IMG/VR virus record: IMGVR_UViG_3300049222_000252
Location: 1-58,995 of that record
Reading direction: 5' to 3' (one strand)
DNA length: 58,995 nucleotides
From: a virus
Taxonomy: Duplodnaviria > Caudoviricetes
Shown one piece after another: positions 1-33,327 of the stretch (the first letter of the stretch is position 1; each line of letters begins with the position of its first letter). The position numbers were made by a program, and so were the translations under genes. The notes beneath the pieces were generated by a model. It worked only from the letters and a program-made list of their open reading frames with translations. It did not search any database and was not told where the DNA came from.

Positions 1-216
1 TTAGAAACTAAACCTACAGTTTCAAGATTAGATATATATTATGAAACATCTACAGCTGGTCTTGTATCAGATTTAAATTTAGCTGTTGTAGAAGAAACAG
101 GCGGCGCTACTGGTGTATTTAATTTTACTTATAACCATTCTGAAGCAGACGCGCCTGAAACAGTTATAGTAAATGAGTTTAGTTTTACAGATATACTAGA
201 TAACATAATAACACCT
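1..216. repeat. Terminal direct repeat, left copy (circular-assembly overlap)
   Basis: 1-216 matches 58780-58995 except one substitution (T89 vs G58868). It lies inside a continuous ORF. Confidence 0.97.
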
Positions 217-1854
217 AGTTCACTTCCAACAATACTTTCTGTGTTTGATAATTCTGGTATAAATCGAAATAATCAATTTGAGTTAGTGCAAGGAAGCACT
301 TCCAATACTTATGATTTAAAAACCAAGGCTGGTCAATATTTTTATTATGGAAGCAACGCTTCTACGCTTGAATCTTACACATTTACTTTTTCAGTAACAG
401 TATCAGGAACTACAACAGAGATAGAAGCAACTGGTGCTTTATCTAATGCAAATCCAACAATTACAAACGATAATAGTTCTACTATAGTTGTACAGCAAGG
501 CGCTACAGATGTACTTTTAAATTTACAAGGTAAAAATGGTTCTAATGATGGCAATCCAGATTCAAATATATATACTCAAGATCTTACGTTTAGTATTGAT
601 CAAGATTTATCTGCGGGTACTGGTGAAAACTGCATTGTTGTTGATAATAACAAAGTACAAAATACAGATCCAAACGCTGCTGGTAATGGAGTTTTTACAC
701 TTCAAATTACAGATGCAGGAGGCGCAACAGCTACTAAAGTGTTTAATGTTACATTTGGTCAACCAACAGTAGGTACTAGGTTTTCTAATTTTAGTGAGTT
801 AAGTTTCATAGACGGAGATGGCGCTGCTGTGTTTTTTGTAGACACAACAACAGGCTTAGATAGTACAAATATAGTTCCAGGTGGTTCAGGTCAAGCTAAT
901 AGACAAGTAGGTTATTCAACGCCAAGTGGAAGAGTAAATTCAGATACAGATCTTTGTAACGTAGGCCCTAATGATGCTCAATATTTTATTCGCATGCCAG
1001 AAAATTCTGGAACAGGAAAACTTACTCAAGGTACTTTTTATGTTATATTTGATATAAATAATGATTTTAAAGAAACACAAACATATCCAGTTTCAAATGT
1101 TAATTGGCAAATAGGTATTGAGTACAGGTCTAGCGATACAGCCCCTTGGTCTGCTGCTTTAGATGTTAATAATACAAGCCTTACAATAGAGGAGATTAAG
1201 GCGACTTGGCGAAGAGGAAGTAATGATGCTACCGCTGAAAATTATATGTATAATTTTGTAAATTCATACAATGGTATGCGCGTAGAGAATCAATATACAA
1301 TTAGTGAATTAACAGCTTTTGGTGGTTACGTATTTGCTTTTAGCGAGCCTGGAGAGTACAGAATAACTTGCGGTAATTTAGCTAGTACGTTTGGAGCTTT
1401 TGGAACTCAAGATTCTTCAAATGGGCAAGGTCTCCGTTGTGATTTATCACAAGATAATAAATCAAATAGTAGATTGAATATAGGTGATTTTAATTATCCA
1501 CCTTCTTCAATAGCACCTGATTTTAACACAAATCCAAATGTATATAGGTATCAAGTTGCTTCAAATATTTCTTGTTATAGTACATTTTCTGTAACTTCAA
1601 CAAGTTACTATGCTGCTGAGCCTTTTGCTAAATATATTACAAAGTTGTATACAGATGTAAATCTTACGCAAGTAGCAACAAGCGTGACTGGCACTCAAAG
1701 ATTTAGACGTATGAAATTTATAAACACTAGTAATTATACTATATATAATCCTGAATATACGGTAAACGGAGCTTACGTAGCTAATTTTACAGACGGAGTT
1801 TTAAACGGTATACCATTCCAATGCACAAGCGAATCAATACCTCAACCTCAGTAA
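1..1854 (+). CDS. C-terminal part of the junction-spanning tail protein (Ig/cadherin-like beta-rich region)
   Basis: Frame 1 is open from position 1 to TAA 1852-1854; the track's GTG start at 241 is internal. Contains 'FTLQITDAGGATATKVFNVT', an Ig-like strand pattern. Confidence 0.8.
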   Translation, partial: LETKPTVSRLDIYYETSTAGLVSDLNLAVVEETGGATGVFNFTYNHSEADAPETVIVNEFSFTDILDNIITPSSLPTILSVFDNSGINRNNQFELVQGSTSNTYDLKTKAGQYFYYGSNASTLESYTFTFSVTVSGTTTEIEATGALSNANPTITNDNSSTIVVQQGATDVLLNLQGKNGSNDGNPDSNIYTQDLTFSIDQDLSAGTGENCIVVDNNKVQNTDPNAAGNGVFTLQITDAGGATATKVFNVTFGQPTVGTRFSNFSELSFIDGDGAAVFFVDTTTGLDSTNIVPGGSGQANRQVGYSTPSGRVNSDTDLCNVGPNDAQYFIRMPENSGTGKLTQGTFYVIFDINNDFKETQTYPVSNVNWQIGIEYRSSDTAPWSAALDVNNTSLTIEEIKATWRRGSNDATAENYMYNFVNSYNGMRVENQYTISELTAFGGYVFAFSEPGEYRITCGNLASTFGAFGTQDSSNGQGLRCDLSQDNKSNSRLNIGDFNYPPSSIAPDFNTNPNVYRYQVASNISCYSTFSVTSTSYYAAEPFAKYITKLYTDVNLTQVATSVTGTQRFRRMKFINTSNYTIYNPEYTVNGAYVANFTDGVLNGIPFQCTSESIPQPQ

Positions 1855-6178: not shown

Positions 6179-9100
6179 ATGGCTAAATATAAGATTGGTA
6201 CGGATCTATATGATTTACCTGAAGAAAAAATAGAATCTTTTCTGTCTACATACCCTGACGCTGTAGAAGTTACAGACGAAATACAAGAACCTGTAACTGA
6301 GGGAAAGACAGACGATGTTGCAACAGTGGGTGCAGATGTAACATCGGAACCGGACACAGCATCCGAGACGCAAGGAACTCCAGAAATTACGGGATTCAAG
6401 TCGGCAGATACTTCTTTGGGTTCTCGATTTATAGATAGTGGTATAGAACTAGAAGGTTTTCAATTTGCTGATGGTATAGGTTTAGCTGGTGTTCAACTCC
6501 CTGAAGTTGTAGTCACTGCTAATCAATATAAAAATTTAGAACAGCAAATACAAAATGAAGGCGCAAAAAATATTACTGAACAACAAGAAGCTAGACAACA
6601 ACTTTTAGAAGAGCAAGTAGCTGAACTACCTAAAGCAGAACCTAGCGATACACCATTTACAAAACTTGTAAATTATTTATCTAAAAAAGGTAAAGAAGAT
6701 GTTGAAGAAACTGAAGATATAATAGCTGCTCAAAGTATTTATGGTAGCACTGTTAATTCATTAGTACAACTAAGCGGTGTTGATGATAGGGCGGATTATC
6801 TTTTAGCATCATTAATACAGCAAATACCTGATGATGTTTTTTTAAATGTATTAGGTGAAAACGCTGGTAAGAAAGCTATAAAATCTACCCAAGAAAACTT
6901 TTCAAGAGTAAATAAGCAAATTGATAATTTAAACAATTTAAACCTTCCAACTTTAGGATTTACTGACGTAGGACAAAAAGAAGGTTTTGATAAAGTAACC
7001 ACTGGTTTAGCTGCTACGTTTAATGGTTTAACAGCTTTTGGTACATCAGCGGTAACATCGCTAGCCACAGGCGGAGCTGGTTTAGCTAGCGATATGTTAT
7101 CTATGTCTATTAAAGATTTTAACGATACAAAAGCCGAGTCGTTAGGTATTACTGCAGAAGAATTATTTGCGTCTGGTCAAGGCGAGATATTAACGCCTTC
7201 AGCTATAGGTGCTGTTGGATATTCTTTAGAAAGATTTGGTATCAAAGGTGTTACTAAGTACATAAACAAAATGGGTAACAAGGCTTCTAAAAGTCTTTTT
7301 GCTTTTTTAAATACTGGTAATAGAGAAGGTTCAACTGAATGGGCTCAGTCAGGCTTAGAAGAGTTTAACAAAGCTATAGCTTCTGGGGTTTCAACAGACG
7401 AAGCAGCTAAAAAAGCTTGGAACTATATGACTTCTTCTGATGGTCTTGAAAATTACCTACAAGGATTTGCTGGTGGTTCAGGTTCTGGTGTTTTAGGTAG
7501 AGCAGCAAAGAATATAAGAAACAAAAATGAAAACGAAGCTTTATCTGAATCAATAAATAGATTAAACGAACTTGAAAATAGTAAGTATAGAAAAAATTTA
7601 AGCGCTGAAGATTTAAGCGTTATAAACACTGCTCAAGATGAAATAAGATTTAACTTAAGAGACATCGTTAATAAAAGCAACGAGCTTGTTGGTACTCTTA
7701 CTGATAAACAAATAGCAGATTTAAACGCTAACACAGATTTCATAACATCTAGTAGTGATCGTATAAACGAAATACAAAATTCTGAAGCTTATACAGATCA
7801 AGAAAAACAAGTATTAATAGATGCTGTTGATAAGCAAAGGGAAGCTGCTTCACAAAATATATATAATATAAGAAGTGAAGCTGATAAACTTCAAGCACAG
7901 ATTGAAACTGTAAAAGGTATAAGCGGTCTTGTTAAAGGTTTAAAAGTAGAAGAATCAGACACGGCTGCTGATGCTGAGAAATTTGCTGAAGATAACAATT
8001 TAGATATTAAATCATCTACATCTCAAGGGTATATACTTCAAAACCCTGAAACAGGCGAGCAAACAATTGTTATAAACAAAGAAACAGCATTAGATGAACA
8101 AGCTGTTAATGTTGCTGCTCACGAATTTTTACACGCTGTGTTATTTAATACTGTAAAAGACAGTCCACAAACTGCTATTAATTTAGGCAATGCTTTATTA
8201 TCTGAATTAAACAAAATAGATACAGCGCAGCTTAAAGATAGTAACTTCAAAAAACGCATGGAGCAATACAATGACGAATCGCGTGAAGTTAAAATGGAAG
8301 AAGCTCTTACTCTTTTTTCAGATGCTATAGCTACAGGTGATATTAAGTTTAATGAAAATGTATTTACTAAATTAGGTGATAGAGTTAGAAGAGTTACACG
8401 AAAATTTGGTGTTAATATTAAATTTAATACTGGCCGTGATGTATACAACTTCATAAAAGACTACAACAAAAGCATTGAAAAAGGTGATCTTAGTTTAGCT
8501 CAAGTACAAGCGGCTGCTAAAGGTGTTGAGGGTGAATTAGTAGCTCCAACAGAGCAACAAGCCGATGAATTAATAGTTAAAGAAGCTAAATCAGATGAAG
8601 CTTCGCAGCGTGTTCAAGAAATATACGAGCAGCAAGGCGAAGCAGGTACTTTCGACATTATAGAGCAGTTCAAACCTATTACAAGTAAACTTGTAGAGCG
8701 TAGAAAAGAAGCTCCTGGTTTTAACAGAGAAGATCTTACTTCTGAAATAGAAATAGGTAAGCGTGGTATTATAGATCTTATTAAAGAATATAAGCCAGAA
8801 TCAGGTGTGCCACTAGCGGCTTATATAAATAAGTTTTTACCAGCTCGAGCAATTGAAGCATCGAAAAGAGTTCTTGGTGAAGAGTTTACAGAAGACGTTA
8901 CTGAAGCAAGAGGTGTTGCGGCTGAAGAGGTTGTAACTGAAACCGCTATTAAACCAGAGGCAAAAGCTATTGATCCGTTTAGGATTATGCCTAATGTAAG
9001 AGAAGCCGCGGTAACAGAAGTACAAAAAAGCATTGCAGATAAAGACGTAGACGTTACAGAGGTTACATATAAGGAACTTAAAGACGTTGCGCCATACCAA

Positions 9101-12100
9101 ACAGTGGCAGACTTTTTTAACATACCTGTAAGTAGAATAAAAAATCCTAAAGATAATTTGCGTAAGTCAGATGACGTAGCAAATATACAGCGTTGGATAT
9201 TAAAAAACGAACCTACATTAAAGAATTTATTTACTGAAGCTAACAGAGATGTTATTGAAATAACTGAAGGCAATAGAGTTATACGTCAAGGTGGTGAACC
9301 AACTGCTATACCTAGAAACTTACTTAATAAGTTTTACACTAAAGGTGATCGTGTTGGTAATAACTTTCAATGGAAACTTAAACCTTACGATCGTACAACT
9401 TTCTTAGAAGCTGTAGGTATTAAAGACGGCAAGGTTGATCCTAACTTCACGCCACGCGCTGCTGAAGCTCAGACTATTAAAGGTATACTAGATATGTATA
9501 CTAGAAACTTAGGTAATGTAGCTGCGAGAGATATTATAGAAGGTCGTGAAGATATTGCACCGGCTGAAAAAGCTAGAGCAAAAGCTGAGGTTGCTAAGGG
9601 TAAACCACGTATTATGCTTAGTAAAGCTGCTAAGCAAGCTGCTGTAGACGAGATAAATCAGTTTATAGAAAAACAAGAATTTGTAAAAACTGAAGATGAA
9701 CTTGCTGCGGAAAATAAAGTTTGGAAATTTATAGCTAAGCAATTAGGAGTAAAACCTATTAGTTCTAAAAACCCAGATGATGTTGTAGAGTTTCAACAGT
9801 GGGTTAAAGATGTTCTTGCTCCTAGAATAGATAAATCTTTTTTTACAACTGGAACATTTGCAAACGCAGGTACTAGCGCTGCTAAAAGAAACTTTTATTT
9901 TACATCAGCGCAAGAATTAAATGATCTACTTGAAGGCGTACAGTTTGGACCTGAATCTAAAAACATACAGCAAGCTGTAAATAGAAAAACATATGTTACT
10001 GGTGGCGCTGAAGGTGTTGTTAGTAAAAAGTTTGTAAAAGAATTTAACAGTTCTGAGTTTAAAAAAGAACAACAAGAAAAACTTGACGGTTTAAAAGAAG
10101 TGTTTACGGTGTTTCAAGAATTAATGCAAGAAGATTCTAACAACACTAAATTTGTAATAGCTTTATTAACAAGCACTAGTCAAGGTATGGGGCATTTTGT
10201 TAGAACATCTGCACCTGTAAAGTTTTATTCTAAAAACATAGAAGGCGGTATAGTTGAAGAGCACACTATGCCAGCTAGTTTAGTAGCTAAATATTTATTT
10301 GGTCAAGCCGTGAACGGTACTATTGATCAAGGTTTCAAGCCTATAGAAAATAATTATTTTCAAGGAGCTTTAGGTAAAAATGATGATAAAAAGTTAAAAG
10401 GTAAAAAACCAGATGGTAAACCTTTTAACTACACATCAATGACTCCAGAGGGTTGGACGCTTAACGATAATATATGGGCTAGATATTTTAATGTAAATGT
10501 AGCTACAAATAATTTTGGTATAGATCCTAACAATATAGTTTTGTCTACGGGTAAAACTGTTTTTGAAACTTACGGTGTTAATAATTCTGGTGGTTTAGTA
10601 AGTAATAATTTTAACACTGAACAACAAAAAGCTGCTCAAATAAATAACAATAAAGTTCCTAAAAACTTTAGAGTTATGGCTAGTAAGTCTATGCCTAATA
10701 CACTAGATAAAATGTCTAATTTAGACGCACAAGCTGTGGAAGCTAATAAAGAATATTTTGATAGTGCTGATCTTGATAAAGGATTTAACGACTTACTAGA
10801 ACAAACAACTGGTATTGCATCGGAAAAAAGATACAAGCGTGTTAAAGCAGAAGTGGCAGGAGCTGCGCGTGGTAGAGCTTTAAGAGGTATACCTTATTCA
10901 GCGCAAGATCTTGTAGGTTTATTATATGAAACTCTTGGTAAAGGAAAACTAGGTGATGCGCAAATGGCATGGTGGACAGAAAACTTAATTAAACCTTATT
11001 CAAAAGCCATGAACGAAATCGATGCATCTAGAATTTCTATGATGCAAGATTATAGAGCTTTAAAGAAACAATTAAAAGTTGTTCCAAAAGATCTTCGTAA
11101 AAAAATACCAGGCGAGCCTTTTACTAGAGAGCAAGCTGTACGTGTTTATATATGGAACACGCAAGGTATGAAAGTTCCTGGCATTAGTGAAGCAGACTTA
11201 AAGGAGTTAACTAATTTTGTAAATAAAAACGAAGACTTAAAAACATTTGCAAATCAGCTTATATACATACAAAAAGGTGATCAATACGCTGCGCCAAAAG
11301 AAGGTTGGCCAGCTGGTAGTATAACAACTGATTTACTTGAAAATATAAACACAGTTAAGCGTGCTAAGTATTTAGAACAGTGGAAAGCTAATAAAGATAT
11401 TATATTTTCAGAAGAAAACTTAAACAAGCTTGAAGCTGCATATGGTAAAAAGTATCGTAAAGCTTTAGAAAATATGCTCGGTCGTATGGAAAGCGGTCGT
11501 AACAGAAACTTTTCAGATGATACTTTAACAGCTAGGTTTACAGACTGGTTGCAAGGTAGTATTGGTACTATAATGTTCTTTAACACTAGATCATCTTTAC
11601 TACAGACGTTATCTTCTATAAACTTTATAAACTTTACAGACAACAACCCGCTTGCCGCTGCTAAAGCTTTTGCAAACCAGAAACAATATTGGTCTGACTT
11701 TATGACGCTAATAAACTCTGACTTCCTTAAGGCTAGAAGATCAGGCTTACGTATGAACGTAAACGAAGCTGACATTGCTGACATGGCTAAGAAAGGTGGA
11801 CCCAAAGCTGTTATTGGTAAATTGCTACAGCTTGGTTTTGCACCAACACAAATAGCAGATAGTTTTGCTATTGCATCTGGTGGCGCTACTTTCTATCGCA
11901 ACAGAGTTAATACATACCAAAAACAAGGTATGTCAAAAGCTAAAGCTGAAGAAAAGGCATTTACAGACTTTAGAGAAAACGCTGAAGAGTCTCAGCAGTC
12001 AGCAAGGCCTGATAGAATATCTATGCAGCAAGCCGGTGGTTTAGGACGTCTTATATTAGCTTTCCAAAATACACCAGCTCAGTATGCTAGACTTATAGAT

Positions 12101-12784
12101 AAGTCTGTTAGAGATCTTAAGAATGGCAGAGGAGATGCTAAAACAAATATAAGCAAGATAGTATATTATTCTACAGTGCAAAACTTATTGTTTAACGCAT
12201 TGCAACAAGCTATGTTTGCTTTCGCTTTTGATGATGAAGAGCCTGAAGACAAGGAAAAGAAAGAAAAATATATTGATGTGGCCAACGGTATGATGGACTC
12301 GCTTCTTAGAGGTACTGGTCTTGCTGGTGGTATAGTGTCTGTAGCTAAAAATGCTATCATTAGAATAGTTGAAGAGTCTGAAAAAGATAGACCTAAGTTT
12401 GAAAAAGTTGGTGCTGACTTACTTAAGATAGCTCCACCTGTTTCATCTAAGCTTTCTAAAATAAATCAAGCAGCTAGATCGTATCAGTGGGATAAAAAAG
12501 AAATGCAAGAGAAAGGCTGGAGTTTAGATAACCCAGCTTACTTAGCGGCTGCAAATGTTATAGCAGCTACAACAAACGTACCATTAGATAGAATAGTTAA
12601 AAAAGGTAACAACGTTGCTAATGCAACTGACAGTGATTTAGAAACTTGGGAGAGATTAGCTTTGCTAGGCGGCTGGCAAGACTGGGAAATTGGTATTGAT
12701 GAAGAAAAACCCGCTAACAAACCTCAACCTAGAAAATCTAAATTTAAAAAGAGTGGATTTAAAAAGTCAGGATTTAAAAAGTAA
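6179..12784 (+). CDS. Giant polyvalent internal virion/cargo protein: zincin (HEFLH), ECF-sigma-like module, HNH-like module, conserved helical C-terminus
   Basis: 2201 aa. HEXXH at aa 648-652 with downstream EEA. Sigma region 2-like and HTH segments at aa ~805-990. Last gene of the ejection cluster. Confidence 0.75.
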   Translation: MAKYKIGTDLYDLPEEKIESFLSTYPDAVEVTDEIQEPVTEGKTDDVATVGADVTSEPDTASETQGTPEITGFKSADTSLGSRFIDSGIELEGFQFADGIGLAGVQLPEVVVTANQYKNLEQQIQNEGAKNITEQQEARQQLLEEQVAELPKAEPSDTPFTKLVNYLSKKGKEDVEETEDIIAAQSIYGSTVNSLVQLSGVDDRADYLLASLIQQIPDDVFLNVLGENAGKKAIKSTQENFSRVNKQIDNLNNLNLPTLGFTDVGQKEGFDKVTTGLAATFNGLTAFGTSAVTSLATGGAGLASDMLSMSIKDFNDTKAESLGITAEELFASGQGEILTPSAIGAVGYSLERFGIKGVTKYINKMGNKASKSLFAFLNTGNREGSTEWAQSGLEEFNKAIASGVSTDEAAKKAWNYMTSSDGLENYLQGFAGGSGSGVLGRAAKNIRNKNENEALSESINRLNELENSKYRKNLSAEDLSVINTAQDEIRFNLRDIVNKSNELVGTLTDKQIADLNANTDFITSSSDRINEIQNSEAYTDQEKQVLIDAVDKQREAASQNIYNIRSEADKLQAQIETVKGISGLVKGLKVEESDTAADAEKFAEDNNLDIKSSTSQGYILQNPETGEQTIVINKETALDEQAVNVAAHEFLHAVLFNTVKDSPQTAINLGNALLSELNKIDTAQLKDSNFKKRMEQYNDESREVKMEEALTLFSDAIATGDIKFNENVFTKLGDRVRRVTRKFGVNIKFNTGRDVYNFIKDYNKSIEKGDLSLAQVQAAAKGVEGELVAPTEQQADELIVKEAKSDEASQRVQEIYEQQGEAGTFDIIEQFKPITSKLVERRKEAPGFNREDLTSEIEIGKRGIIDLIKEYKPESGVPLAAYINKFLPARAIEASKRVLGEEFTEDVTEARGVAAEEVVTETAIKPEAKAIDPFRIMPNVREAAVTEVQKSIADKDVDVTEVTYKELKDVAPYQTVADFFNIPVSRIKNPKDNLRKSDDVANIQRWILKNEPTLKNLFTEANRDVIEITEGNRVIRQGGEPTAIPRNLLNKFYTKGDRVGNNFQWKLKPYDRTTFLEAVGIKDGKVDPNFTPRAAEAQTIKGILDMYTRNLGNVAARDIIEGREDIAPAEKARAKAEVAKGKPRIMLSKAAKQAAVDEINQFIEKQEFVKTEDELAAENKVWKFIAKQLGVKPISSKNPDDVVEFQQWVKDVLAPRIDKSFFTTGTFANAGTSAAKRNFYFTSAQELNDLLEGVQFGPESKNIQQAVNRKTYVTGGAEGVVSKKFVKEFNSSEFKKEQQEKLDGLKEVFTVFQELMQEDSNNTKFVIALLTSTSQGMGHFVRTSAPVKFYSKNIEGGIVEEHTMPASLVAKYLFGQAVNGTIDQGFKPIENNYFQGALGKNDDKKLKGKKPDGKPFNYTSMTPEGWTLNDNIWARYFNVNVATNNFGIDPNNIVLSTGKTVFETYGVNNSGGLVSNNFNTEQQKAAQINNNKVPKNFRVMASKSMPNTLDKMSNLDAQAVEANKEYFDSADLDKGFNDLLEQTTGIASEKRYKRVKAEVAGAARGRALRGIPYSAQDLVGLLYETLGKGKLGDAQMAWWTENLIKPYSKAMNEIDASRISMMQDYRALKKQLKVVPKDLRKKIPGEPFTREQAVRVYIWNTQGMKVPGISEADLKELTNFVNKNEDLKTFANQLIYIQKGDQYAAPKEGWPAGSITTDLLENINTVKRAKYLEQWKANKDIIFSEENLNKLEAAYGKKYRKALENMLGRMESGRNRNFSDDTLTARFTDWLQGSIGTIMFFNTRSSLLQTLSSINFINFTDNNPLAAAKAFANQKQYWSDFMTLINSDFLKARRSGLRMNVNEADIADMAKKGGPKAVIGKLLQLGFAPTQIADSFAIASGGATFYRNRVNTYQKQGMSKAKAEEKAFTDFRENAEESQQSARPDRISMQQAGGLGRLILAFQNTPAQYARLIDKSVRDLKNGRGDAKTNISKIVYYSTVQNLLFNALQQAMFAFAFDDEEPEDKEKKEKYIDVANGMMDSLLRGTGLAGGIVSVAKNAIIRIVEESEKDRPKFEKVGADLLKIAPPVSSKLSKINQAARSYQWDKKEMQEKGWSLDNPAYLAAANVIAATTNVPLDRIVKKGNNVANATDSDLETWERLALLGGWQDWEIGIDEEKPANKPQPRKSKFKKSGFKKSGFKK

Positions 12785-14374: not shown

Positions 14375-14411
14375 AAGAAGGGGCCCTCAAACGAGGACCC
14401 CTTTTTTTTTT
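14375..14411 (+). terminator. Intrinsic terminator between the convergent arms (possibly bidirectional)
   Basis: AAGAAGGGGCCCTC-AAAC-GAGGACCCC followed by a long T run. Confidence 0.85.
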
Positions 14412-14412
14412 A

Positions 14413-16176
14413 TTATCCATCACAACTCAAGCAGTCTGAGTCCATAGCGCTTGCCGCTATATCACCTCTTAATACTGATTCAGTACGCATATAGTATAAG
14501 GTTTTAACACCTTTTTTCCATGCATCTAAATGAACTTGGTTAATCCATTTAGGTGTTGCTTCAGAAGGAAACGCTAGGTTTAAACTAACAGACTGATCTA
14601 CATACTGTTGCCGTATACCAGCTTGATTAACTAACTCTAATTGATTTATTTCCTTGAAGGTTTTAAATACATCTTTGACTTTATCAAAGCCTGTAGCTTC
14701 TAAATCATCTTGCTCGGATAACACTACTAACCTCCTATTGACATATCCAAAGTCATCTAATGGTAGATCCTGAATACTACCGCCATCAGCCATTATCTTA
14801 TCCCAAGTTTCTTTAGTATTGATACTAGCTTTTCTTAAGACTTTTTCGAGCTCTTTGTTCTTCCTAATGAACGTACCCTTCGCGCTTTGTTCAGTGAAAA
14901 CATTAGCGGCCCAAGGCTCAATGCCAGGACTAACATTACCGGCAAGCTTACTATTAGACACAGTAGGAGCAATAGCCCTGAGATGAGTGTTGCGCATGCC
15001 AGTGCCAACACACCAAAGAGGTTCGCCATAAAGTTCAGCCAAATCCCTAGAAGCCCTTTCACTTTCAATTTTGATTTGAGAAAATATACGTCTAGTTTCG
15101 AACTGTGCTTGTAATCCTTCGAATGGTATTCCGTTTCTTTGTAGGTATGTGTGCCAGCCCAATACTCCGAGGCCAAGCGCTCTACCTTTTTCCGCTGATC
15201 TAACTGAGTTCGCAAATCCGACTTTGCCTTTTGCTTTTTGTATAAACTCTTCAAGTACACCATCAAGAAACCATATAGCGTCATATATGAGGTTCGTGTT
15301 TTTCCATTCTTCATATTTAGATATATTTAAACTTGATAAGCAACAAACAAAGCTATGACTTTCATCTGTATGTAATGTAATCTCACTACAGATATTTGTC
15401 ATATGTACTTTTAACGCATTGTCTTTGTACGCTTTTGGATTTGCTTTGTTAGTATTTCCTTTAAAGAGTATATACGGTTCTCCAGTTGCTTTTCGTTTTC
15501 TAATAAGTTTACTCCATCGAGACCTAGCGTCTGCATCTCCTTGTTCAAGGCGACGCATAAATTTATCACCAACAACTGCGCACTGATGTAAATTAAGCGA
15601 TTGTCTGTTGACATCTCCTTTAGGTTCTCTAATTTCAAGCCACTCCTCAAAATCGTTGTGCTCAATGTTGATGTTAACTGAGGCTGCCCCTCGTCTAACA
15701 GACCCTTGATTAGTAGCGAGTATTGTTGAATCATAAATTTTGCAAAATGGTACGACTCCGTCTGATGTTCCATTACCTGTAATTTTAGCGCCAGCGGGTC
15801 TAATCTGATTGATACCAATGCCAACTCCACCGCCGTGCTTAGCGAGCAGCATCATCTCTAAATTTTTAGCACCGATATCATGTATACTATCTGCAACATC
15901 GATACCAAAACAACTAATCGGTAAACCTCTATCTGTACCTGTATTAGATAACACAGGGCTTGCTAAGTTCAACCAGCCTTTCCAAATATAATTGAAAAAT
16001 GTTTCAGCTAACTCTGGCCTGTCAAGTCTACGCGCAACTGTTTTGCATACTCGCTGGTATGCATCTCTTGGCGACTCGTCGTAGAGTAAATATCCCCCGG
16101 ATATAGTCTTCTTGTATACGTCTGTTTCTCCCCACTCTGGGTAATCAATTCCTTTTTTCCACTCATTATTCCACAT
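14413..16176 (-). CDS. nrdA: Class I ribonucleotide reductase alpha subunit (no ATP cone)
   Basis: ASPVLSN, PISCF, GGGVG, TNICSEI, IAPTVSNS, KTLYY, C-terminal CLSCDG. Confidence 0.97.
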   Translation of the reverse strand: MWNNEWKKGIDYPEWGETDVYKKTISGGYLLYDESPRDAYQRVCKTVARRLDRPELAETFFNYIWKGWLNLASPVLSNTGTDRGLPISCFGIDVADSIHDIGAKNLEMMLLAKHGGGVGIGINQIRPAGAKITGNGTSDGVVPFCKIYDSTILATNQGSVRRGAASVNINIEHNDFEEWLEIREPKGDVNRQSLNLHQCAVVGDKFMRRLEQGDADARSRWSKLIRKRKATGEPYILFKGNTNKANPKAYKDNALKVHMTNICSEITLHTDESHSFVCCLSSLNISKYEEWKNTNLIYDAIWFLDGVLEEFIQKAKGKVGFANSVRSAEKGRALGLGVLGWHTYLQRNGIPFEGLQAQFETRRIFSQIKIESERASRDLAELYGEPLWCVGTGMRNTHLRAIAPTVSNSKLAGNVSPGIEPWAANVFTEQSAKGTFIRKNKELEKVLRKASINTKETWDKIMADGGSIQDLPLDDFGYVNRRLVVLSEQDDLEATGFDKVKDVFKTFKEINQLELVNQAGIRQQYVDQSVSLNLAFPSEATPKWINQVHLDAWKKGVKTLYYMRTESVLRGDIAASAMDSDCLSCDG

Positions 16177-24148: not shown

Positions 24149-24907
24149 CTACAGATAATCAATCACTTGAGAGTGATCTACGTTATCGATAAGCTTTTGT
24201 ACAGCAGCCCGTTTAAGCTCGCTTACGCGTACATAATTGCTTGTACCTTCAATATTTAATTTAGCCGCGATATCTTTAGCTGAATACTTATCGCAGTCAA
24301 GTCCATAGCTTAAACGTAACACTTCATATTCTTTTTCATCTAAGTGTTTTTGTAATAAACTTTTCAGATAACTATTAAGCAAAGCTATATTATATGGCTC
24401 AGACTTATCTTGTATCTGGTGTATCATACTCTCGCCTTCGTCGTTTGAAGGTTGAGCATCTATTGATAAAAATATAGAGTTGAAAAACATTTCAACCATC
24501 TTTTTGTCTTTAGGATTTTTACGTATCTCGTTCATCTTATGCTCAGGTATACGTATATCGCCTCTGTGCATATCGATTCTACGACGTATTGCGCCTTTAA
24601 TACGTTTGCTGAAGAAACTTTTTAAAGTCTTTTCTATATCATCAGACTCTTCAAGAGTTTTCCACTCAAGCTTATCAACAGCTTTTACCAAAGCATAACC
24701 GCCTTCTTGTATTAGATCGTTAATACTAAGCACACCTGATGCTTGCTGCGTAGTTGAAAACTTACGTGCTAAATTTTCTACAAGAGGTAGAAACTTAACA
24801 ACAAGCTCATTACGCGTGTAATCTTTAAAATCCCAATTACCTTCAGGCATAGACCGTTTAAGATCTTCTTTGTATCTTATGTAGTTTTGTACATTGTACT
24901 TTTTCAT
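24149..24907 (-). CDS. Phage sigma-70 family factor (free sigma)
   Basis: Region 2: LPLVENLARKF...DLIQEG...AVDK...IKGAIRR...IRIP. Region 4: LDEKEYEVLRLSYGL...DIAAKL...RVSELKRAAVQKL. Confidence 0.92.
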   Translation of the reverse strand: MKKYNVQNYIRYKEDLKRSMPEGNWDFKDYTRNELVVKFLPLVENLARKFSTTQQASGVLSINDLIQEGGYALVKAVDKLEWKTLEESDDIEKTLKSFFSKRIKGAIRRRIDMHRGDIRIPEHKMNEIRKNPKDKKMVEMFFNSIFLSIDAQPSNDEGESMIHQIQDKSEPYNIALLNSYLKSLLQKHLDEKEYEVLRLSYGLDCDKYSAKDIAAKLNIEGTSNYVRVSELKRAAVQKLIDNVDHSQVIDYL

Positions 24908-30756: not shown

Positions 30757-30793
30757 TATTATTATCCAACGGTGTTCGTATTTTGTTTGTAAA
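30757..30793 (-). promoter_or_regulatory. Early promoter motif copy P5
   Basis: TTTACAAACAAAATAC-GAACACCGT-TGGATAATA upstream of ATG 30741. Confidence 0.8.
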
Positions 30794-30995
30794 GGATTTC
30801 AATAGTTTTACTAACCACTGCTTCCAATGCATCATAATAATCATCACCACTTAATTTATCTAGCGATGTACCATCAATAGCCCACTCTGCGTTTTGCATT
30901 AGTGTTTCTTTAGCTGTTGTAGCCATAAAATCTGCTACTTGCTCTATTTCTTTCATCTTACCCATATTAAAAGTAGTATATTTCGTTATCAGCAT
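30762..30995 (-). CDS. Hypothetical early protein (start probably MGKMKE)
   Basis: ORF track plus AT-rich leader. Confidence 0.6.
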   Translation of the reverse strand: MLITKYTTFNMGKMKEIEQVADFMATTAKETLMQNAEWAIDGTSLDKLSGDDYYDALEAVVSKTIEILYKQNTNTVG

Positions 30996-31212
30996 GAGAC
31001 ATCCAGTTCACTTCGTCTAGTCTATAACCTTCAGAGGTAATAAACTCTTCAAAGTCTTCAGTTTGAAATGAAGATAACTGCTCATCGTTGAAGTGATCTT
31101 GCAAGTCATACTGGTCGACAGTGCCATTAGCGTAGTCTAGTATTGTTAAATAGTGCATTTTTTTATTTGTTTTAGTTGTTCGACTGAATATTGTTTGCTC
31201 GTCTCGCGCCAC
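30967..31212 (-). CDS. Acidic hypothetical early protein (start probably MHYLTILDY)
   Basis: ORF track. Confidence 0.6.
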   Translation of the reverse strand: MARDEQTIFSRTTKTNKKMHYLTILDYANGTVDQYDLQDHFNDEQLSSFQTEDFEEFITSEGYRLDEVNWMSHADNEIYYF

Positions 31213-31403
31213 ATACGGTGGTGAGTGAACTTACGAGCTTTAGCAAAACTCGATTTCTGACTGTGTTTAATACGAGTGTATTCTTTGTCAGTTAGTCCAC
31301 TGCACCTGCCTTCGTGGGCAAACTTGCGTCTATGCTCCGCAGCTCGCTGTTTTCTCATGAACGAAGAGTATTCGCATAGCTCTTTCATAGTTGTTACGCC
31401 CAT
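31146..31403 (-). CDS. Basic hypothetical early protein
   Basis: ORF track; start probably MKELCEY. Confidence 0.55.
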   Translation of the reverse strand: MGVTTMKELCEYSSFMRKQRAAEHRRKFAHEGRCSGLTDKEYTRIKHSQKSSFAKARKFTHHRMWRETSKQYSVEQLKQIKKCTI

Positions 31404-31597
31404 GGGTTGTCTGATTTAGGTACATAGGTTAGACCTTTGTAGTTGAACCATTGATATATACCTTCTTGGATATCGCCATTACCGGTTAGTCTTTGTTTAA
31501 AGCCAAATGATGGAGGTAGATTACCTACACTGTAAGGTTTATAAATTTCGCCGTTAAGCTTGATTGTCTTATCAGATAAGAATTTGATTGATTGCAT
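31394..31597 (-). CDS. Hypothetical early protein
   Basis: 67-aa ORF immediately after promoter P4. Confidence 0.7.
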   Translation of the reverse strand: MQSIKFLSDKTIKLNGEIYKPYSVGNLPPSFGFKQRLTGNGDIQEGIYQWFNYKGLTYVPKSDNPWA

Positions 31598-31613
31598 AGT
31601 TTGTAATTGTTTA

Positions 31614-31650
31614 TTATATTATCCAGTAAGTGTCGTATTTTATTTGTAAT
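31614..31650 (-). promoter_or_regulatory. Early promoter motif copy P4
   Basis: ATTACAAATAAAATAC-GACACTTAC-TGGATAATA. Confidence 0.8.
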
Positions 31651-31783
31651 AATTTTGCTGCCATTGTGGAATACCTGAGTTATAGCGCTCATAATACTCA
31701 CGCTCAAACGCTTCTATTTGAGCTCTAGTTAGCTTTGCAAAAGTTAATCTAGTTCGTCTTCTTGTAGATTTGCTTCTATCCAT
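31640..31783 (-). CDS. Hypothetical peptide (47 aa)
   Basis: MDRSKSTRRRTRLTFAKLTRAQIEAFEREYYERYNSGIPQWQQNYYK; fills the gap before P4. Confidence 0.5.
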   Translation of the reverse strand: MDRSKSTRRRTRLTFAKLTRAQIEAFEREYYERYNSGIPQWQQNYYK

Positions 31784-31983
31784 TCGTTTTCTTCTTTTAG
31801 TACTTTATATTCTATTTTAACTATCAAGTCATTAAATAAATCTTGAGTAGTTTCACCGTCTTCTAAGTCACATTCATGAGTTACAAAGCTTAGTACTCTC
31901 TGTGATACGTGAGCCCAACCGTTTAAGTCGTATAGCTCAGCGAAGTAGTCTATTGTTTCTTCGTTCCAAGTAAATTCTTTCAT
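31744..31983 (-). CDS. Acidic hypothetical early protein
   Basis: Start MKEFTWNE within the track ORF. Confidence 0.6.
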   Translation of the reverse strand: MKEFTWNEETIDYFAELYDLNGWAHVSQRVLSFVTHECDLEDGETTQDLFNDLIVKIEYKVLKEENEWIEANLQEDELD

Positions 31984-32177
31984 ATTGTTTCTTTGTTTAT
32001 AGCTTCGAGCATTTGCTCTAACACCCATTTAATTTCTTTTATACTATTACCGCCTACTGTAGCTCCTTTAGATGTATATCCATTGATTTTACCATCTTCA
32101 CTGTAATATACTTCGTGTATTTGATAGAAATCATCTTCACCATCTTTAGTTTTAATTACTCTGTAGTTCCAACTCAT
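31980..32177 (-). CDS. Hypothetical protein (MSWNYRV... QIHEVYY type)
   Basis: Start MSWNYRVI within the track ORF. Confidence 0.7.
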   Translation of the reverse strand: MSWNYRVIKTKDGEDDFYQIHEVYYSEDGKINGYTSKGATVGGNSIKEIKWVLEQMLEAINKETI

Positions 32178-32178
32178 A

Positions 32179-32436
32179 TTAGTCGCCTTGATATCTAGTT
32201 GTGTCTGCATAATAAGCAGCAGCACTTGCAGTAGATAGCTCGCGACGGTATTCGTATAGCGCTCGGTTATCTAAGTAGTCATCGATTCTATGAATCATAT
32301 CTTGTTCTAGTTCTGTAGAGAACGATTGAATATGGTATGGGTGGAAGTTAAAATACTCGCATGAGTAACCACTTGCTTTGTTACCTTTATAGGTAGTCCA
32401 CTCGTGATATTCGTAAGGTATATTCCTGTGTTGCAT
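32179..32436 (-). CDS. Hypothetical early protein
   Basis: 85-aa ORF immediately after P3. Confidence 0.7.
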   Translation of the reverse strand: MQHRNIPYEYHEWTTYKGNKASGYSCEYFNFHPYHIQSFSTELEQDMIHRIDDYLDNRALYEYRRELSTASAAAYYADTTRYQGD

Positions 32437-32451
32437 AGTATTATTATTTTA

Positions 32452-32488
32452 TATTATTATCCAGTTAGTTTCGTATTTTATTTGTAAA
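32452..32488 (-). promoter_or_regulatory. Early promoter motif copy P3
   Basis: TTTACAAATAAAATAC-GAAACTAAC-TGGATAATA. Confidence 0.8.
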
Positions 32489-32755: not shown

Positions 32756-32769
32756 AGTTATTATTTTAG

Positions 32770-32810
32770 AAGTCACGGTGAGAATCGAACTCACATTAAC
32801 CATTGTGACT
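32770..32810 (-). ncRNA. tRNA-like element 3 (41-nt minihelix: acceptor stem + GG loop + T-arm)
   Basis: AGTCAC-AATGGTTAAT-GTGAG-TTCGATT-CTCAC-C-GTGACT-T. Confidence 0.75.
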
Positions 32811-33163: not shown

Positions 33164-33200
33164 TTATATTATCCAGTTGTTACTGTATTTTGTTTGTAAA
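33164..33200 (-). promoter_or_regulatory. Early promoter motif copy P2
   Basis: TTTACAAACAAAATAC-AGTAACAAC-TGGATAATA. Confidence 0.8.
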
Positions 33201-33290: not shown

Positions 33291-33327
33291 TATTATTATC
33301 CAAATGGTGTTGTATTATGTCTGTAAA
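33291..33327 (-). promoter_or_regulatory. Early promoter motif copy P1
   Basis: TTTACAGACATAATAC-AACACCATT-TGGATAATA. Confidence 0.78.

What the first reader, a model, noticed from the sequence alone, without database searches (positions are those of the whole stretch)
8576..9628. ECF-sigma-like module embedded in the giant ejected protein: a candidate virion-injected sigma factor
Seen: aa ~805-900 of the 2201-aa protein read SQRVQEIYEQQGEAGTFDIIEQFKPITSKLVERR...NREDLTSEIEIGKRGIIDLIKEYKPESGVPLAAYINKFLPARAIEASKR. About 75 aa later comes PYQTVADFFNIPVSRIK. Known: this tracks sigma-70/ECF region 1.2-2.4 (..EDL..E...G...A...FDP.RG..F.TY) and the region 4.2 HTH (SYEEIAE.L.IP.GTVK). crAss-like phages and N4 inject a whole virion RNA polymerase from large internal virion proteins; this genome has no RNAP. 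Inference: the phage injects a sigma factor that reprograms host core RNAP to read the five early promoters before any phage protein is made. The second, free sigma (24149-24907) would then drive middle/late genes. I am not aware of a described virion-delivered sigma, but I could not search the literature.
Basis: partly seen in the sequence, partly recalled or inferred. Interest (0 to 1): 0.9.

Follow-up and report, generated by a model that had tools for sequence, protein, structure and literature searches.

The report
Sigma-like domain inside giant phage protein
A giant protein that this uncultured marine flavobacterial phage probably carries in its particle contains a very conserved look-alike of the sigma-factor part that grips bacterial RNA polymerase, so the phage may bring its own transcription starter, but no experiment shows this yet.

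Summary
The quoted residues are in the 2201-aa ORF (6179-12784) as described. Residues ~805-901 are predicted to fold like sigma-factor domain 2. Most top structure matches are sigma chains, though only at Z 5-7. A protein-language-model search gives Sigma70_r2 at 0.96. One PHROG sigma family matches weakly. Pfam, NCBIfam and profile searches see no sigma. This stretch is the best conserved part of the protein family.

The proposed region-4.2 HTH is not supported. Residues 933-1145 form a confident, basic alpha/beta domain with no sigma-4 or other known match.

The giant gene closes the structural module. Its N-terminal third is homologous to Cellulophaga phage phi40:1 gp101, which that record annotates as found in virions by MS/MS.

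The module, a free sigma gene and a conserved non-host promoter-like motif upstream of that gene occur together. The free sigma is in 8 of 8 module carriers and 0 of 3 related phages without the module. The motif is in 7 of those 8 and in 0 of 3.

A complex prediction with flavobacterial beta' gave weak support (0.53, best control 0.00).

Ejection, polymerase binding and promoter reading are untested. This scan noted the same module before in other genomes. My literature searches found no description of it.

The parts
6179..12784 (+). Giant ORF of 2201 aa (244 kDa, no cysteine). It is the last gene of the structural module and a probable internal virion or ejection protein.
   Evidence: Context: terminase 45929-48142, portal 48143-50563, then virion structural proteins. 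Gene order is colinear with phi40:1 gp091-gp101.
6311..7969 (+). N-terminal region (aa ~45-597), variable within the family but homologous to the N-terminal part of Cellulophaga phage phi40:1 gp101.
   Evidence: an HMM of aa 1-620 built from 46 family members hits gp101 residues 64-748 at 30.0 bits, E 8.5e-11 among 4 sequences; the record annotates gp101 as 'structural protein; annotation based on experimental MS/MS proteomics analysis'.
8036..8548 (+). Zincin-like region (aa 620-790) with HExxH at aa 648-652 (nt 8120-8134).
   Evidence: H648, E649 and H652 are kept in 43, 44 and 44 of 46 aligned representatives; the HMM of this region hits Elemovirus gp18 aa 1537-1673 (32.4 bits) and the MW202828 giant aa 2478-2593 (15.2 bits). 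Pfam is silent.
8591..8881 (+). Sigma-factor domain-2-like helical domain (aa ~805-901, acidic, pI 5.1). It is the most conserved part of the giant protein.
   Evidence: fold; language-model features; phrog_1025; identity 0.51-0.90 with no gaps across 46 representatives; aa 876-900 at 0.90; weak complex support; pI.
8882..8974 (+). Acidic linker predicted disordered (aa ~902-932, pI 4.2).
   Evidence: pLDDT below 50 for model residues 123-150; pI.
8975..9613 (+). Basic alpha/beta domain (aa ~933-1145, pI 9.4) with no known fold match.
   Evidence: pLDDT 82.5, pTM 0.82; best VIA Z 4.1, none at Z>=5; best Foldseek E 1.3; the only BFVD hit with E<=0.001 is a piece of a large protein of an uncultured virus. 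Atlas gives no usable hit; pI.
10754..12703 (+). Conserved C-terminal region (aa 1526-2175) of unknown function, with no classical transmembrane helix.
   Evidence: identity 0.33-0.65 across 46 representatives; highest 19-residue Kyte-Doolittle mean is 1.33; no family match.
24149..24907 (-). Free sigma-70-family factor (252 aa) with regions 2 and 4.
   Evidence: TIGR02937, 51.8 bits, cut-off 42.9. (Sigma70_r2 7.3e-5, Sigma70_r4 0.0017, both just under Pfam's cut-offs). (phrog_351 9e-20)..
30760..30793 (-). Promoter-like site 1: TTTACA..AATACGA-N7-TGGATAATA.
31617..31650 (-). Promoter-like site 2.
32455..32488 (-). Promoter-like site 3.
33167..33200 (-). Promoter-like site 4.
33294..33327 (-). 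Promoter-like site 5.

Best explanation
The 2201-aa protein is a mosaic virion protein of an uncultured marine phage. The phage is related, through its portal and structural module, to podoviruses of Flavobacterium, Cellulophaga and Tenacibaculum.

Shown:
- Residues ~805-901 are predicted to fold like domain 2 of sigma-70-family factors. That domain docks on the beta' clamp helices of core RNA polymerase and reads and opens the -10 element.
- An acidic disordered linker follows, then a basic alpha/beta domain of no known fold.
- This block is the most conserved part of a family of some 260-315 protein clusters, almost all giant proteins.
- In the genomes examined it occurs together with a free sigma gene and, in all but one incomplete record, with a cluster of conserved non-host promoter-like sites (AATACGA-N7-TGGATAATA) that lie upstream of that sigma gene.

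Inferred, in order of decreasing certainty:
1. The protein is packed in the virion.
2. It is ejected with the DNA.
3. The sigma-2-like module, perhaps freed by proteolysis, binds host core RNA polymerase.
4. It directs that enzyme to the early promoter-like sites through their -10-like GGATAATA box. It would act as a sigma-2-only factor like T4 gp55, with the basic domain possibly reading the upstream box. Early genes and the free sigma gene would then be transcribed before any phage protein is made.
5. The free sigma then takes over.
For: Fold:
- In the VIA search against 48,161 chains, 13 of the 15 best rows are sigma-factor chains aligned over model residues ~25-125. Examples are 8x6g_H SigB (Z 7.0, rmsd 2.9, 87 aligned), 9m84_F (6.6), 7d7d_F (6.5, rmsd 3.0, 90 aligned) and 8b3z_A SigE N-terminal domain (6.1, 80 of 80 aligned).
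- Most of the 49 Foldseek rows shown are sigma chains, by my reading of the entry titles. 8b3z_F has probability 0.99, TM 0.67 on the target and 24% identity.

Independent method: ESM features put the segment with PF04542 clusters (27 of 30 hits, best 0.96) and with viral 'sigma factor' clusters (0.95).

Weak profile signal: phrog_1025 at E 0.001, seen in 11 of 23 members at E<=1.

Selection: the segment is the best conserved of the whole protein. Identity is 0.90 over aa 876-900, with no gaps, in 46 representatives.

Virion location:
- The gene closes the structural module.
- Gene order is colinear with phi40:1 gp098-gp101. The N-terminal HMM hits gp101 at 30 bits, and the 136-aa neighbour hits gp098 at E 1e-10.
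- The record annotates gp101 as found by MS/MS.
- There is no cysteine in 2201 aa, nor in gp101.

System logic:
- The free sigma (TIGR02937) is present in the window and in 7 of 7 module-carrying relatives examined, and in 0 of 3 related phages without the module: Elemovirus NC_055853, phi40:1 and MW202828.
- The motif, at up to 1 mismatch, occurs 3-9 times on one strand in 6 of those 7 relatives and 5 times in the window, upstream of the sigma gene. It occurs 0 times in the 3 non-carriers. The reversed-pattern control gave 0 in five of these seven carriers and 3 in G001 and G004.
- No exact host-type TTTG-N17-23-TAnnTTTG site (consensus recalled) lies on the minus strand of the early arm.

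Architecture: acidic domain, acidic disordered linker, then a basic domain (pI 5.1, 4.2, 9.4).

Docking: the complex prediction with residues 150-420 of F. johnsoniae beta' scored 0.53 (runs 0.50-0.54) against a best control of 0.00. The verdict was 'weak support'. The mark was reached by 58 of 80 solved complexes and 2 of 110 mismatched pairs. At 0.60 or under it was reached by only 7 of those 80 and by both mismatches that passed. The runs agree in at least 44% of contacts and the partner's pLDDT is at least 71. Sigma-2 with beta' is a solved textbook pair, so the pass may reflect likeness only.
Against: No curated sigma profile sees the segment: Pfam (0 of 23 members), NCBIfam, and a six-frame PF04542 scan.

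A profile of the core searched against 1.84 billion proteins found only 315 proteins at E<=0.001. The 150 listed all score better than 1e-39 and are mostly giant proteins, so canonical sigma factors are not reached.

hhalign finds nothing:
- against the phage's own sigma, probability 0.3;
- against a 15-sequence sigma alignment I built, one row of which was a wrong-strand artefact, probability 0.4;
- against the corrected sigma-2-only alignment, probability 0.1-0.2.
A profile search of PDB sequences found no sigma.

The fold Z scores are all below 8. The tool warns that this is a range where helical bundles can match by common arrangement.

No sigma-4 was found.

The free sigma has regions 2 and 4, which suits a two-box promoter. 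It is as conserved as the module: 0.67-0.84 identity against 0.66-0.73 in the same three relatives. It co-occurs with the motif equally strictly, so it or a host sigma may read the five sites.

G001, a module carrier, shows no motif at up to 1 mismatch, but the record is only 82% complete.

The host is not identified. The beta' used is a stand-in.

There are no virion, binding or transcription data for this phage.
Confidence: 0.4

Rival explanations
1. The module does dock on host RNA polymerase but is not a promoter-specificity factor. One possibility is that it competes with host sigma for the beta' clamp helices and shuts off the host at entry. Another is that it tethers polymerase to the entering DNA end so that transcription pulls the genome in, as host polymerase does for T7 (recalled).
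For: This rival rests on the same fold and docking evidence as the best explanation. It needs no sigma-4, which fits. The module sits in a protein whose relatives carry other cargo-like domains, namely PF06414/PF13671 and PF01476 in some family members.
Against: The most conserved stretch is the last helix (aa 876-900, identity 0.90). In sigma-2, by the model's helix order, that helix corresponds to the DNA-reading part (regions 2.3-2.4) rather than the beta'-binding helix. This mapping is my inference and not a residue-level alignment. A blocker of the clamp helices would also block the phage's own free sigma, which always accompanies the module. The strict co-occurrence with a conserved -10-like box has no explanation under this rival.
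Confidence: 0.2
2. The segment only resembles sigma-2 as a compact helical bundle, or is an ancient sigma-2 derivative that has lost polymerase binding. It would serve another role, such as a structural or packing element of the internal virion protein, or a decoy that binds some other host protein, as the sigma-like domain of PhyR binds the anti-sigma NepR (abstract of PMC5830050 in the listing; details recalled).
For: All sequence-profile tests for sigma are negative. The fold Z scores are below 8. The complex verdict is only 'weak' and may come from memory of solved complexes.
Against: Sigma chains fill 13 of the 15 best VIA rows out of 48,161 chains. An independent language-model search gives the same family in 27 of 30 hits. 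The controls in the complex test scored 0.00. The co-occurrence with a free sigma and a promoter-like motif would be a coincidence.
Confidence: 0.2
3. The module acts inside the infected cell from newly made protein rather than from the incoming virion. It might act late as a sigma-like or anti-sigma-like regulator before the giant protein is packaged. Its place in a virion protein would then be incidental.
For: The gene lies in the structural module, which is presumably expressed late. Nothing here shows ejection into the cytoplasm.
Against: This does not explain why the domain is kept fused inside a 244-kDa virion protein in nearly all of the 150 best family members, when a free sigma gene already exists. 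It does not solve who first reads the non-host sites upstream of the free sigma gene.
Confidence: 0.1

Closest known systems
Sigma-70 family, domain sigma-2 (regions 1.2 and 2.1-2.4; Pfam PF04542), for example SigB 8x6g_H, sigma-28 6pmj_F, sigma-32 8hkc_E and the SigE N-terminal domain 8b3z
   Same: The predicted fold and helix order match. The language-model features match. The domain is acidic and is followed by an acidic flexible linker. The sequence pattern ..DL..E...G......Y.P......L..Y.......A is visible in the translation.
   Different: It is not recognised by any curated sigma profile. It is embedded at position ~800 of a 2201-aa virion protein. No sigma-3 or sigma-4 was detected. The aromatic-rich melting motif of group-1 sigmas is not evident by eye; that comparison is recalled and not tested.
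T4 gp55, a late sigma made of a sigma-2-like domain only. I take chain F of 7d7d to be gp55; the tool gives only the entry title.
   Same: It is a phage factor with sigma-2 likeness and no sigma-4, and it reads a -10-only element (TATAAATA, recalled). It is among the best fold matches: Z 6.5, rmsd 3.0, 90 aligned.
   Different: gp55 is a free 185-aa (recalled) late protein that works with gp33 and the sliding clamp. Here the domain sits in a virion protein, would act first rather than last, and is followed by a basic domain. phrog_1025, the PHROG family that weakly matches the segment, finds nothing in the T4 genome.
phiEco32 gp36 and related free phage sigma factors. I take chain F of 9m7y to be this sigma, going by the abstract of PMC12276001 in the listing.
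   Same: It is a phage-encoded sigma that redirects host core RNAP to phage promoters with a -10-like motif (tAATGTATAtA; passages of PMC4281155). Fold match: Z 6.1, rmsd 3.4, 87 aligned.
   Different: It is free-standing and made after infection. In phage SU10 its orthologue was seen with a single peptide in a preparation that also held DNA polymerase and other non-structural proteins (passage of PMC4281155). That is no evidence of packaging.
Virion-packaged RNA polymerases: N4 gp50, and the large virion protein of crAss-like phages such as Cellulophaga phage phi14:2
   Same: These are giant internal virion proteins that are ejected with the DNA and start early transcription (abstracts of PMC13434306 in the listing and of 10.1101/2020.03.07.982082 in the listing). 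The position is the same, at the end of the structural module of a podovirus-type genome.
   Different: Those carry a whole polymerase. Here no polymerase family was found. The module would borrow the host's core enzyme instead.
Cellulophaga phage phi40:1 gp101 and Elemovirus gp18, the syntenic giant 'structural proteins'
   Same: They have the same gene position and neighbours. They share the N-terminal region (phi40:1 gp101, 30 bits) or the zincin-like region (Elemovirus gp18, 32.4 bits). gp101 is annotated as found in virions by MS/MS.
   Different: They have no sigma-2-like module. Their genomes have no free sigma and no AATACGA-N7-TGGATAATA motif.

Membership tests
Sigma-70 family (domain sigma-2, PF04542 / TIGR02937) | Match to the curated sequence profile above its cut-off | tested here: not met
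   Pfam gives no sigma family for the segment, the whole protein, or any of 23 family members. NCBIfam gives none. The six-frame PF04542 scan of the genome finds only the free sigma. Only phrog_1025 matches weakly, at E 0.001.
Sigma-70 family (domain sigma-2, PF04542 / TIGR02937) | Sigma-2 fold (helical bundle of regions 1.2-2.4) | tested here: met
   The AF2 model has pLDDT 79-90 over residues 21-120. 13 of the 15 best VIA rows are sigma chains at Z 5.7-7.0, though all Z are below 8. Foldseek lists mostly sigma chains, none at E<=0.001. ESM features give PF04542 at 0.96.
Sigma-70 family (domain sigma-2, PF04542 / TIGR02937) | Binding to the beta' clamp helices of core RNA polymerase | tested here: inconclusive
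   The complex prediction with F. johnsoniae beta' 150-420 scored 0.53 against a best control of 0.00, verdict 'weak support'. It may reflect memory of solved sigma-beta' complexes. The host is unknown.
Sigma-70 family (domain sigma-2, PF04542 / TIGR02937) | Recognition and melting of a -10 element | not testable with these tools
   There is only a correlation. The invariant TGGATAATA box co-occurs with the module, and equally with the free sigma.
Complete sigma factor (sigma-2 plus sigma-4) | Sigma-4 profile match (PF04545 / PF08281) | tested here: not met
   No region-4 family appears in the segment or in any of 23 members at E<=10. The free sigma does show Sigma70_r4.
Complete sigma factor (sigma-2 plus sigma-4) | Sigma-4 / HTH fold downstream of the linker | tested here: inconclusive
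   The domain aa 929-1144 was folded alone (pLDDT 82.5). No sigma-4 or HTH chain appears among the 50 VIA rows (best Z 4.1) or the Foldseek rows shown (best E 1.3). A small HTH inside a larger domain could be missed.
T4 gp55-type sigma-2-only factor | Sigma-2-like domain without sigma-4, acting at a -10-only promoter with co-activators | tested here: inconclusive
   Fold match to 7d7d_F at Z 6.5. Sequence relation to gp55 was not tested directly. phrog_1025 has no match in T4. Co-activators were not looked for.
Internal virion / ejection protein of podoviruses | Gene in the structural module, with the product present in virions | tested here: met
   Position after terminase, portal and structural genes. 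Colinearity and N-terminal homology with phi40:1 gp101, which its record annotates as MS/MS-detected. Presence in this phage's own virion is not testable here.
Internal virion / ejection protein of podoviruses | Ejection into the host cell with the DNA | not testable with these tools
   This is inferred from analogy only. The absence of cysteine is compatible with it but proves nothing.
Virion RNA polymerase (N4 or crAss type) | Polymerase catalytic domain | tested here: inconclusive
   PF00623 finds no match, and its control rings in 14 of 14 genomes. PF00940 finds no match, but its control rang nowhere. Very divergent polymerases would escape both. The conserved C-terminal 650 aa were not folded.

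The most novel reading that the evidence does not exclude
This phage clade delivers a sigma-like initiation factor inside its virion. The giant protein is ejected with the DNA. Its sigma-2-like module, with the following basic domain standing in for sigma-4, binds host core RNA polymerase. It fires the conserved AATACGA-N7-TGGATAATA early promoters before any phage protein exists, including those that lead to the phage's free sigma gene. That would be the first virion-delivered sigma factor. It would be a third way, besides host-sigma promoters and packaged polymerases, for a phage to start its programme.
Probability: 0.3. Interest if true: 0.9.

Novelty: new variant of a known kind. Interest (0 to 1): 0.7.

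Why it matters
Phages are known to start transcription in two ways. Some use promoters that the host holoenzyme reads. Others inject a complete RNA polymerase (N4, crAss-like and phiKZ-like phages).

A packaged sigma-like module that borrows the host's core enzyme would be a cheaper third solution. It would explain how a phage can have early promoters unlike the host consensus, placed upstream of its own sigma gene.

The family is large in marine metagenomes. One search found 896 clusters at 90% identity and one search found 315 at 50% identity. The mechanism, if real, would therefore be common among phages of marine Flavobacteriia, which are major degraders of algal bloom carbon.

It would also give a minimal sigma-2 domain of very divergent sequence with an invariant DNA-reading helix and an invariant -10-like box. 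That pairing would be useful for studying promoter recognition.

The idea is directly testable with recombinant protein and flavobacterial RNAP, even though the phage is uncultured.

Tried and rejected
Searches that found nothing useful:
- Sequence searches of the phage collection (blastn and tblastn with the segment, the whole protein and the zincin region) found nothing. Cultured relatives were reached only through the portal.
- A PDB sequence-profile search with A1 gave 5 hits at E<=10, none a sigma.
- hhalign of the core (A2) against the phage's free sigma gave probability 0.3.
- hhalign against a 15-sequence alignment gave probability 0.4. That alignment held 11 sigma stretches from two MAGs plus 4 phage sigmas, and one row was a wrong-strand artefact. 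After I corrected that row and trimmed to sigma-2, probability was 0.1-0.2. The query alignment has low diversity (Neff 1.66).
- The big profile search lists only the best 150 of 315 hits, so the roughly 55 weak hits between 1e-10 and 1e-3 were not seen. 17 of the 150 listed are under 600 aa. I did not check whether these are fragments at contig ends.
- A scan of genome contigs for a host gave only two short MAG contigs, labelled Parvibaculum and Arcobacter. Other contigs of the second MAG encode the phage-type free sigma. I read these as mis-binned phage DNA and not as host evidence.
- phrog_1025 found no match in T4, Elemovirus, phi40:1, or two module carriers in six-frame mode, so the PHROG signal is weak and patchy.
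- I looked by k-mer counts and by eye for a second, late promoter motif upstream of the plus-strand genes. Nothing was clear, and the ORF mask was faulty at the window ends.
- RNA runs: all 24 holders are kept as contigs with shares of 0.20 or less. Laying four of them gave fragments of related phages in three runs and none in the fourth. They show no starts and no proof of transcription.
- Literature: searches found no paper describing a sigma or sigma-like domain in a virion, internal or ejection protein. The exact phrases 'virion-associated sigma', 'packaged sigma factor' and 'virion sigma factor' had 0 occurrences in every listed row. I read only listings and abstracts, plus passages of PMC4281155. 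Subscription journals are not covered, and supplements were not consulted.

Considered and rejected:
- The module as a recent duplicate of the free sigma. No similarity was found.
- An alternative register that puts aa 876-905 on sigma regions 2.1-2.2. It arose in a forced global hhalign. I rejected it because a disordered linker follows, and because the fold alignments span the whole sigma-2.

Full report
WHAT IS THERE. The window is a whole IMG/VR virus record of 58,995 bases. It is linear and CheckV estimates it 92% complete. The ORF at 6179-12784(+) encodes 2201 aa. The free sigma at 24149-24907(-) is a true sigma-70-family member: TIGR02937 scores 51.8 bits against a cut-off of 42.9, and phrog_351 scores 9e-20.

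CONTEXT.
- PHROG scans place the large terminase at 45929-48142 and the portal at 48143-50563. Several 'virion structural protein' families follow downstream. The record's ends cut through a large structural gene. The giant gene is the last of this module.
- The portal finds 87 phage records by tblastn, all under 60% identity. They are 68 Flavobacterium Elemovirus records, 15 Cellulophaga, 2 Tenacibaculum, 1 Maribacter and 1 uncultured. The host is therefore very probably a member of the Flavobacteriaceae. No host genome was identified.
- In Cellulophaga phage phi40:1 the order portal ... gp098 (132 aa), gp099 (200 aa), gp100 (549 aa), gp101 (1691 aa) mirrors the window's order of 136 aa, 244 aa, 549 aa and 2201 aa. 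The record annotates gp101 as 'structural protein; annotation based on experimental MS/MS proteomics analysis'.
- An HMM of the N-terminal 620 residues of the P0001 family hits gp101 residues 64-748 at 30.0 bits. The 136-aa neighbour hits gp098 at E 1e-10.
- The zincin-like region carries HExxH at aa 648-652, kept in 43-44 of 46 representatives. This region is shared with the syntenic 3694-aa 'structural protein' gp18 of Elemovirus (32.4 bits), and weakly with the 3859-aa giant of MW202828 (15.2 bits).
- I conclude that the protein is a mosaic giant virion protein. Its ejection into the cell is inferred by analogy only.

THE SIGMA-2-LIKE DOMAIN.
- Family size: 896 giant proteins (1210-3852 aa) match aa 780-1180 at E<=0.001, and 38 viral contigs encode relatives.
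- Conservation: in an alignment of the window plus 22 of those loci, the stretch FDIIEQFKPI...VPLAAYINKFLPARAIEAS.RVLGEEFT.DVTE is nearly invariant. Across 46 representatives at 50% clustering, aa 801-925 is the best conserved part of the whole protein. Identity is 0.51-0.90 with no gaps, and aa 876-900 reach 0.90.
- Model: the AlphaFold2 model of aa 780-1180 has mean pLDDT 71, and 79-90 over model residues 21-120. It has helices at model residues 27-51, 53-61, 71-80, 85-91 and 100-120, followed by a stretch with pLDDT below 50 at residues 123-150.
- Foldseek against the PDB gives no hit at E<=0.001. Most of the 49 rows shown are sigma-factor chains by their titles. They include 8b3z_F, the SigE N-terminal domain, at probability 0.99, TM 0.67 on the target, rmsd 2.7 and 24% identity.
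- VIA-align against 48,161 representative chains gives 29 chains at Z>=5 and none at Z>=8. Of the 15 best rows, 13 are sigma chains aligned to model residues ~25-125. They include SigB at Z 7.0, 7d7d_F at 6.5, sigma-28 at 6.2, sigma-32 at 6.2, 9m7y_F at 6.1, the SigE N-terminal domain at 6.1 and an RpoS region-2 fragment at 6.0. By my count at least 27 of the 50 rows are sigma chains. The tool warns that Z below 8 can arise from common helical arrangements. The enrichment for one family is what carries weight here.
- The ESM-Atlas feature search is independent of the model. It puts aa 800-930 with clusters carrying PF04542 in 27 of 30 hits (best 0.96), and with viral 'sigma factor' clusters (0.95).
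- phrog_1025, named 'RNA polymerase sigma factor', matches at E 0.001. It matches 11 of 23 members at E<=1.

Against sigma homology, every curated or self-made sequence profile is silent:
- Pfam (0 of 23 members), NCBIfam, and the six-frame PF04542 scan.
- The PDB sequence-profile search.
- hhalign against the free sigma and against sigma alignments that I built from two MAGs, at probabilities 0.1-0.4.
- A profile search of 1.84 billion proteins, which found 315 proteins at E<=0.001. The 150 listed are all strong hits and mostly giant proteins, so canonical sigma factors are not reached.

My reading is that the fold is sigma-2-like with good probability. Homology is remote and not shown by sequence.

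NO SIGMA-4.
Folded alone, aa 929-1144 gives a confident alpha/beta model with pLDDT 82.5 and pTM 0.82.
- The best VIA Z is 4.1, with none at Z>=5. The best Foldseek PDB E-value is 1.3. No sigma-4 or HTH protein appears among the rows shown. The Atlas gives no usable hit.
- In BFVD the only hit at E<=0.001 is a piece of a large protein of an uncultured virus (TM 0.65 on the query). I take it to be a family member.
- The domain is basic (pI 9.4). The sigma-2-like domain is acidic (pI 5.1) and so is the linker (pI 4.2). This charge layout recalls sigma-2, linker and DNA-binding domain, but that is only a resemblance.

A THREE-PART SYSTEM.
- Five sites on the minus strand (30760-33327) share TTACARAYAWAATAC-N9-TGGATAATA. 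TGGATAATA occurs exactly six times in the window. Five are these sites, and the sixth is at 14411-14419.
- No exact host-type site TTTG-N17-23-TAnnTTTG (consensus recalled) lies on the minus strand of the early arm. The window has 8 such sites against 4.3 expected. One, at 33126-33159(+), points into the rightward arm.

The table below compares module carriers with related phages that lack the module. Motif counts are at up to 1 mismatch.

| Genome | Module | Motif copies | Free sigma (TIGR02937) |
|---|---|---|---|
| Window | yes | 5 | yes |
| G001 (82% complete) | yes | 0 | yes |
| G002 | yes | 4 | yes |
| G003 | yes | 7 | yes |
| G004 | yes | 9 | yes |
| G007 | yes | 7 | yes |
| G008 | yes | 3 | yes |
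| G009 | yes | 6 | yes |
| Elemovirus NC_055853 | no | 0 | no |
| phi40:1 | no | 0 | no |
| MW202828 | no | 0 | no |

- In carriers the copies are nearly all on one strand. The reversed-pattern control gave 0 in five of the seven relatives and 3 in G001 and G004.
- The sigma-like core of G002-G004 is only 66-73% identical to the window's.
- Where both were found (window, G003, G004, G007, G008, G009), the motif cluster lies upstream of the sigma gene on the same strand.

This co-occurrence argues that the module belongs to a phage-specific transcription programme. It cannot say which sigma reads the sites. The free sigma is as conserved as the module: 0.67-0.84 identity in the same three relatives. 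It also has both regions 2 and 4, which suits a two-box promoter. The argument for the module is positional. The free sigma gene lies downstream of these sites and cannot be the first to fire them, unless a host promoter that I did not recognise primes it.

DOCKING TEST. A complex prediction of the core (alignment A2) with residues 150-420 of Flavobacterium johnsoniae beta' scored 0.53 (three runs, 0.50-0.54). The three controls all scored 0.00. The verdict was 'weak support'. The mark was reached by 58 of 80 solved complexes and by 2 of 110 mismatched pairs. At 0.60 or under it was reached by only 7 of those 80 and by both mismatches that passed. The runs agree in at least 44% of contacts and the partner's pLDDT is at least 71. 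Sigma-2 with the beta' clamp helices is a much-solved pair, so the pass may show likeness and not binding. The beta' is a stand-in for an unknown host.

MECHANISM AND ODDS.
- Best reading (0.4): a virion-carried sigma-2-like module engages host core RNAP at entry and starts early transcription at the conserved sites, in the manner of the sigma-2-only factor T4 gp55. The free sigma acts afterwards.
- Rival 1 (0.2): docking without promoter specificity, either as host shut-off or as a tether for transcription-driven DNA entry.
- Rival 2 (0.2): a fold look-alike or a decoy with no polymerase role.
- Rival 3 (0.1): action from newly made protein rather than from the virion.
- Conserved boundary motifs flank the 347-aa block: K-E-[SA]-[KR]-S near aa 801 and M-[FL]-S-K near aa 1146. 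The latter recurs at aa 1500. These and the conserved HExxH leave room for proteolytic release. That was not tested.

COMPARISON WITH WHAT IS KNOWN. Free phage sigma factors (T4 gp55, phiEco32 gp36) and packaged polymerases (N4, crAss-like phages) are known. A sigma-like module inside a virion protein was not found in my literature searches. Those searches covered listings and abstracts only. The nearest claim in print that I checked is the sigma of phage SU10. It was seen with one peptide in a preparation that also contained DNA polymerase and other non-structural proteins (passages of PMC4281155). That is not evidence of packaging. No polymerase family was found in this genome.

EARLIER NOTES OF THIS SCAN. 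Look-alike stretches were noted in 16 windows of 16 genomes. Several follow-ups reached the same partial verdict. I used them as leads only, and the tests above are my own.

VERDICT. I class this as a new variant of a known kind, with interest 0.7.

Noticed in passing
window 8120-8134 (aa 648-652 of the giant protein): HExxH (HEFLH) is kept in 43-44 of 46 family representatives. The surrounding region (aa 620-790) is the only part shared with the syntenic giant proteins of Elemovirus (32.4 bits) and MW202828 (15.2 bits). Pfam does not recognise it.
   Followed up: partly
window 6179-12784; L065 32303-37378: The 2201-aa protein has no cysteine at all. Neither does the 1691-aa gp101 of phi40:1.
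   Followed up: no
window ~8579-8593, 9614-9625 and 10676-10687 (aa ~801-805, 1146-1149, 1500-1503): Conserved short boundary motifs bracket blocks of about 350 aa. They are K-E-[SA]-[KR]-S before the sigma-like block and M-[LFA]-S-K after it, and the latter recurs 354 aa later. They may be processing sites of a polyprotein.
   Followed up: partly
proteins P0086, P0091, P0110, P0106-P0108: Some giant proteins of the same family carry precomputed Pfam labels: PF06414/PF13671 (zeta-toxin-type kinase / AAA_33) or PF01476 (LysM). This suggests the giants are carriers of exchangeable cargo domains.
   Followed up: no
window 33126-33159 (+): This is the only exact host-type TTTG-N-TAnnTTTG site in the divergent intergenic region. 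It points into the rightward arm (genes from 33643, including a GroEL homologue at 35839-37392). The consensus is recalled.
   Followed up: no
window 14376-14419 (-): A sixth exact TGGATAATA lies at the 3' end of the ribonucleotide reductase gene (14413-16176). It has no upstream box and is followed by an A-run and a G+C-rich inverted repeat, so it looks like a terminator region rather than a promoter.
   Followed up: no
window 1-1854 and 56140-58995: Both ends of the record cut open reading frames. The 3'-open ORF matches the start of phrog_14478 (a 1474-position virion structural protein), and ORF 1872-3287 matches its later part. The linear record is probably a nearly complete circular or permuted genome opened inside a structural gene.
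   Followed up: partly
L044, L056, L058, L060 (one MAG labelled Arcobacter); L043 (a MAG labelled Parvibaculum): Short contigs of two bacterial MAGs encode the giant-protein core. In the first MAG, other contigs also encode the phage-type free sigma (scores 332-409 bits against my phage-sigma HMM). This is most likely phage DNA binned with bacteria, not host evidence.
   Followed up: partly
window 24149-24907 (-) and relatives: The free sigma family is very abundant. 8000 of 8000 scored candidates matched at E<=0.001, and the 120 listed are at least 83% identical. One cluster has 426 member sequences.
   Followed up: no
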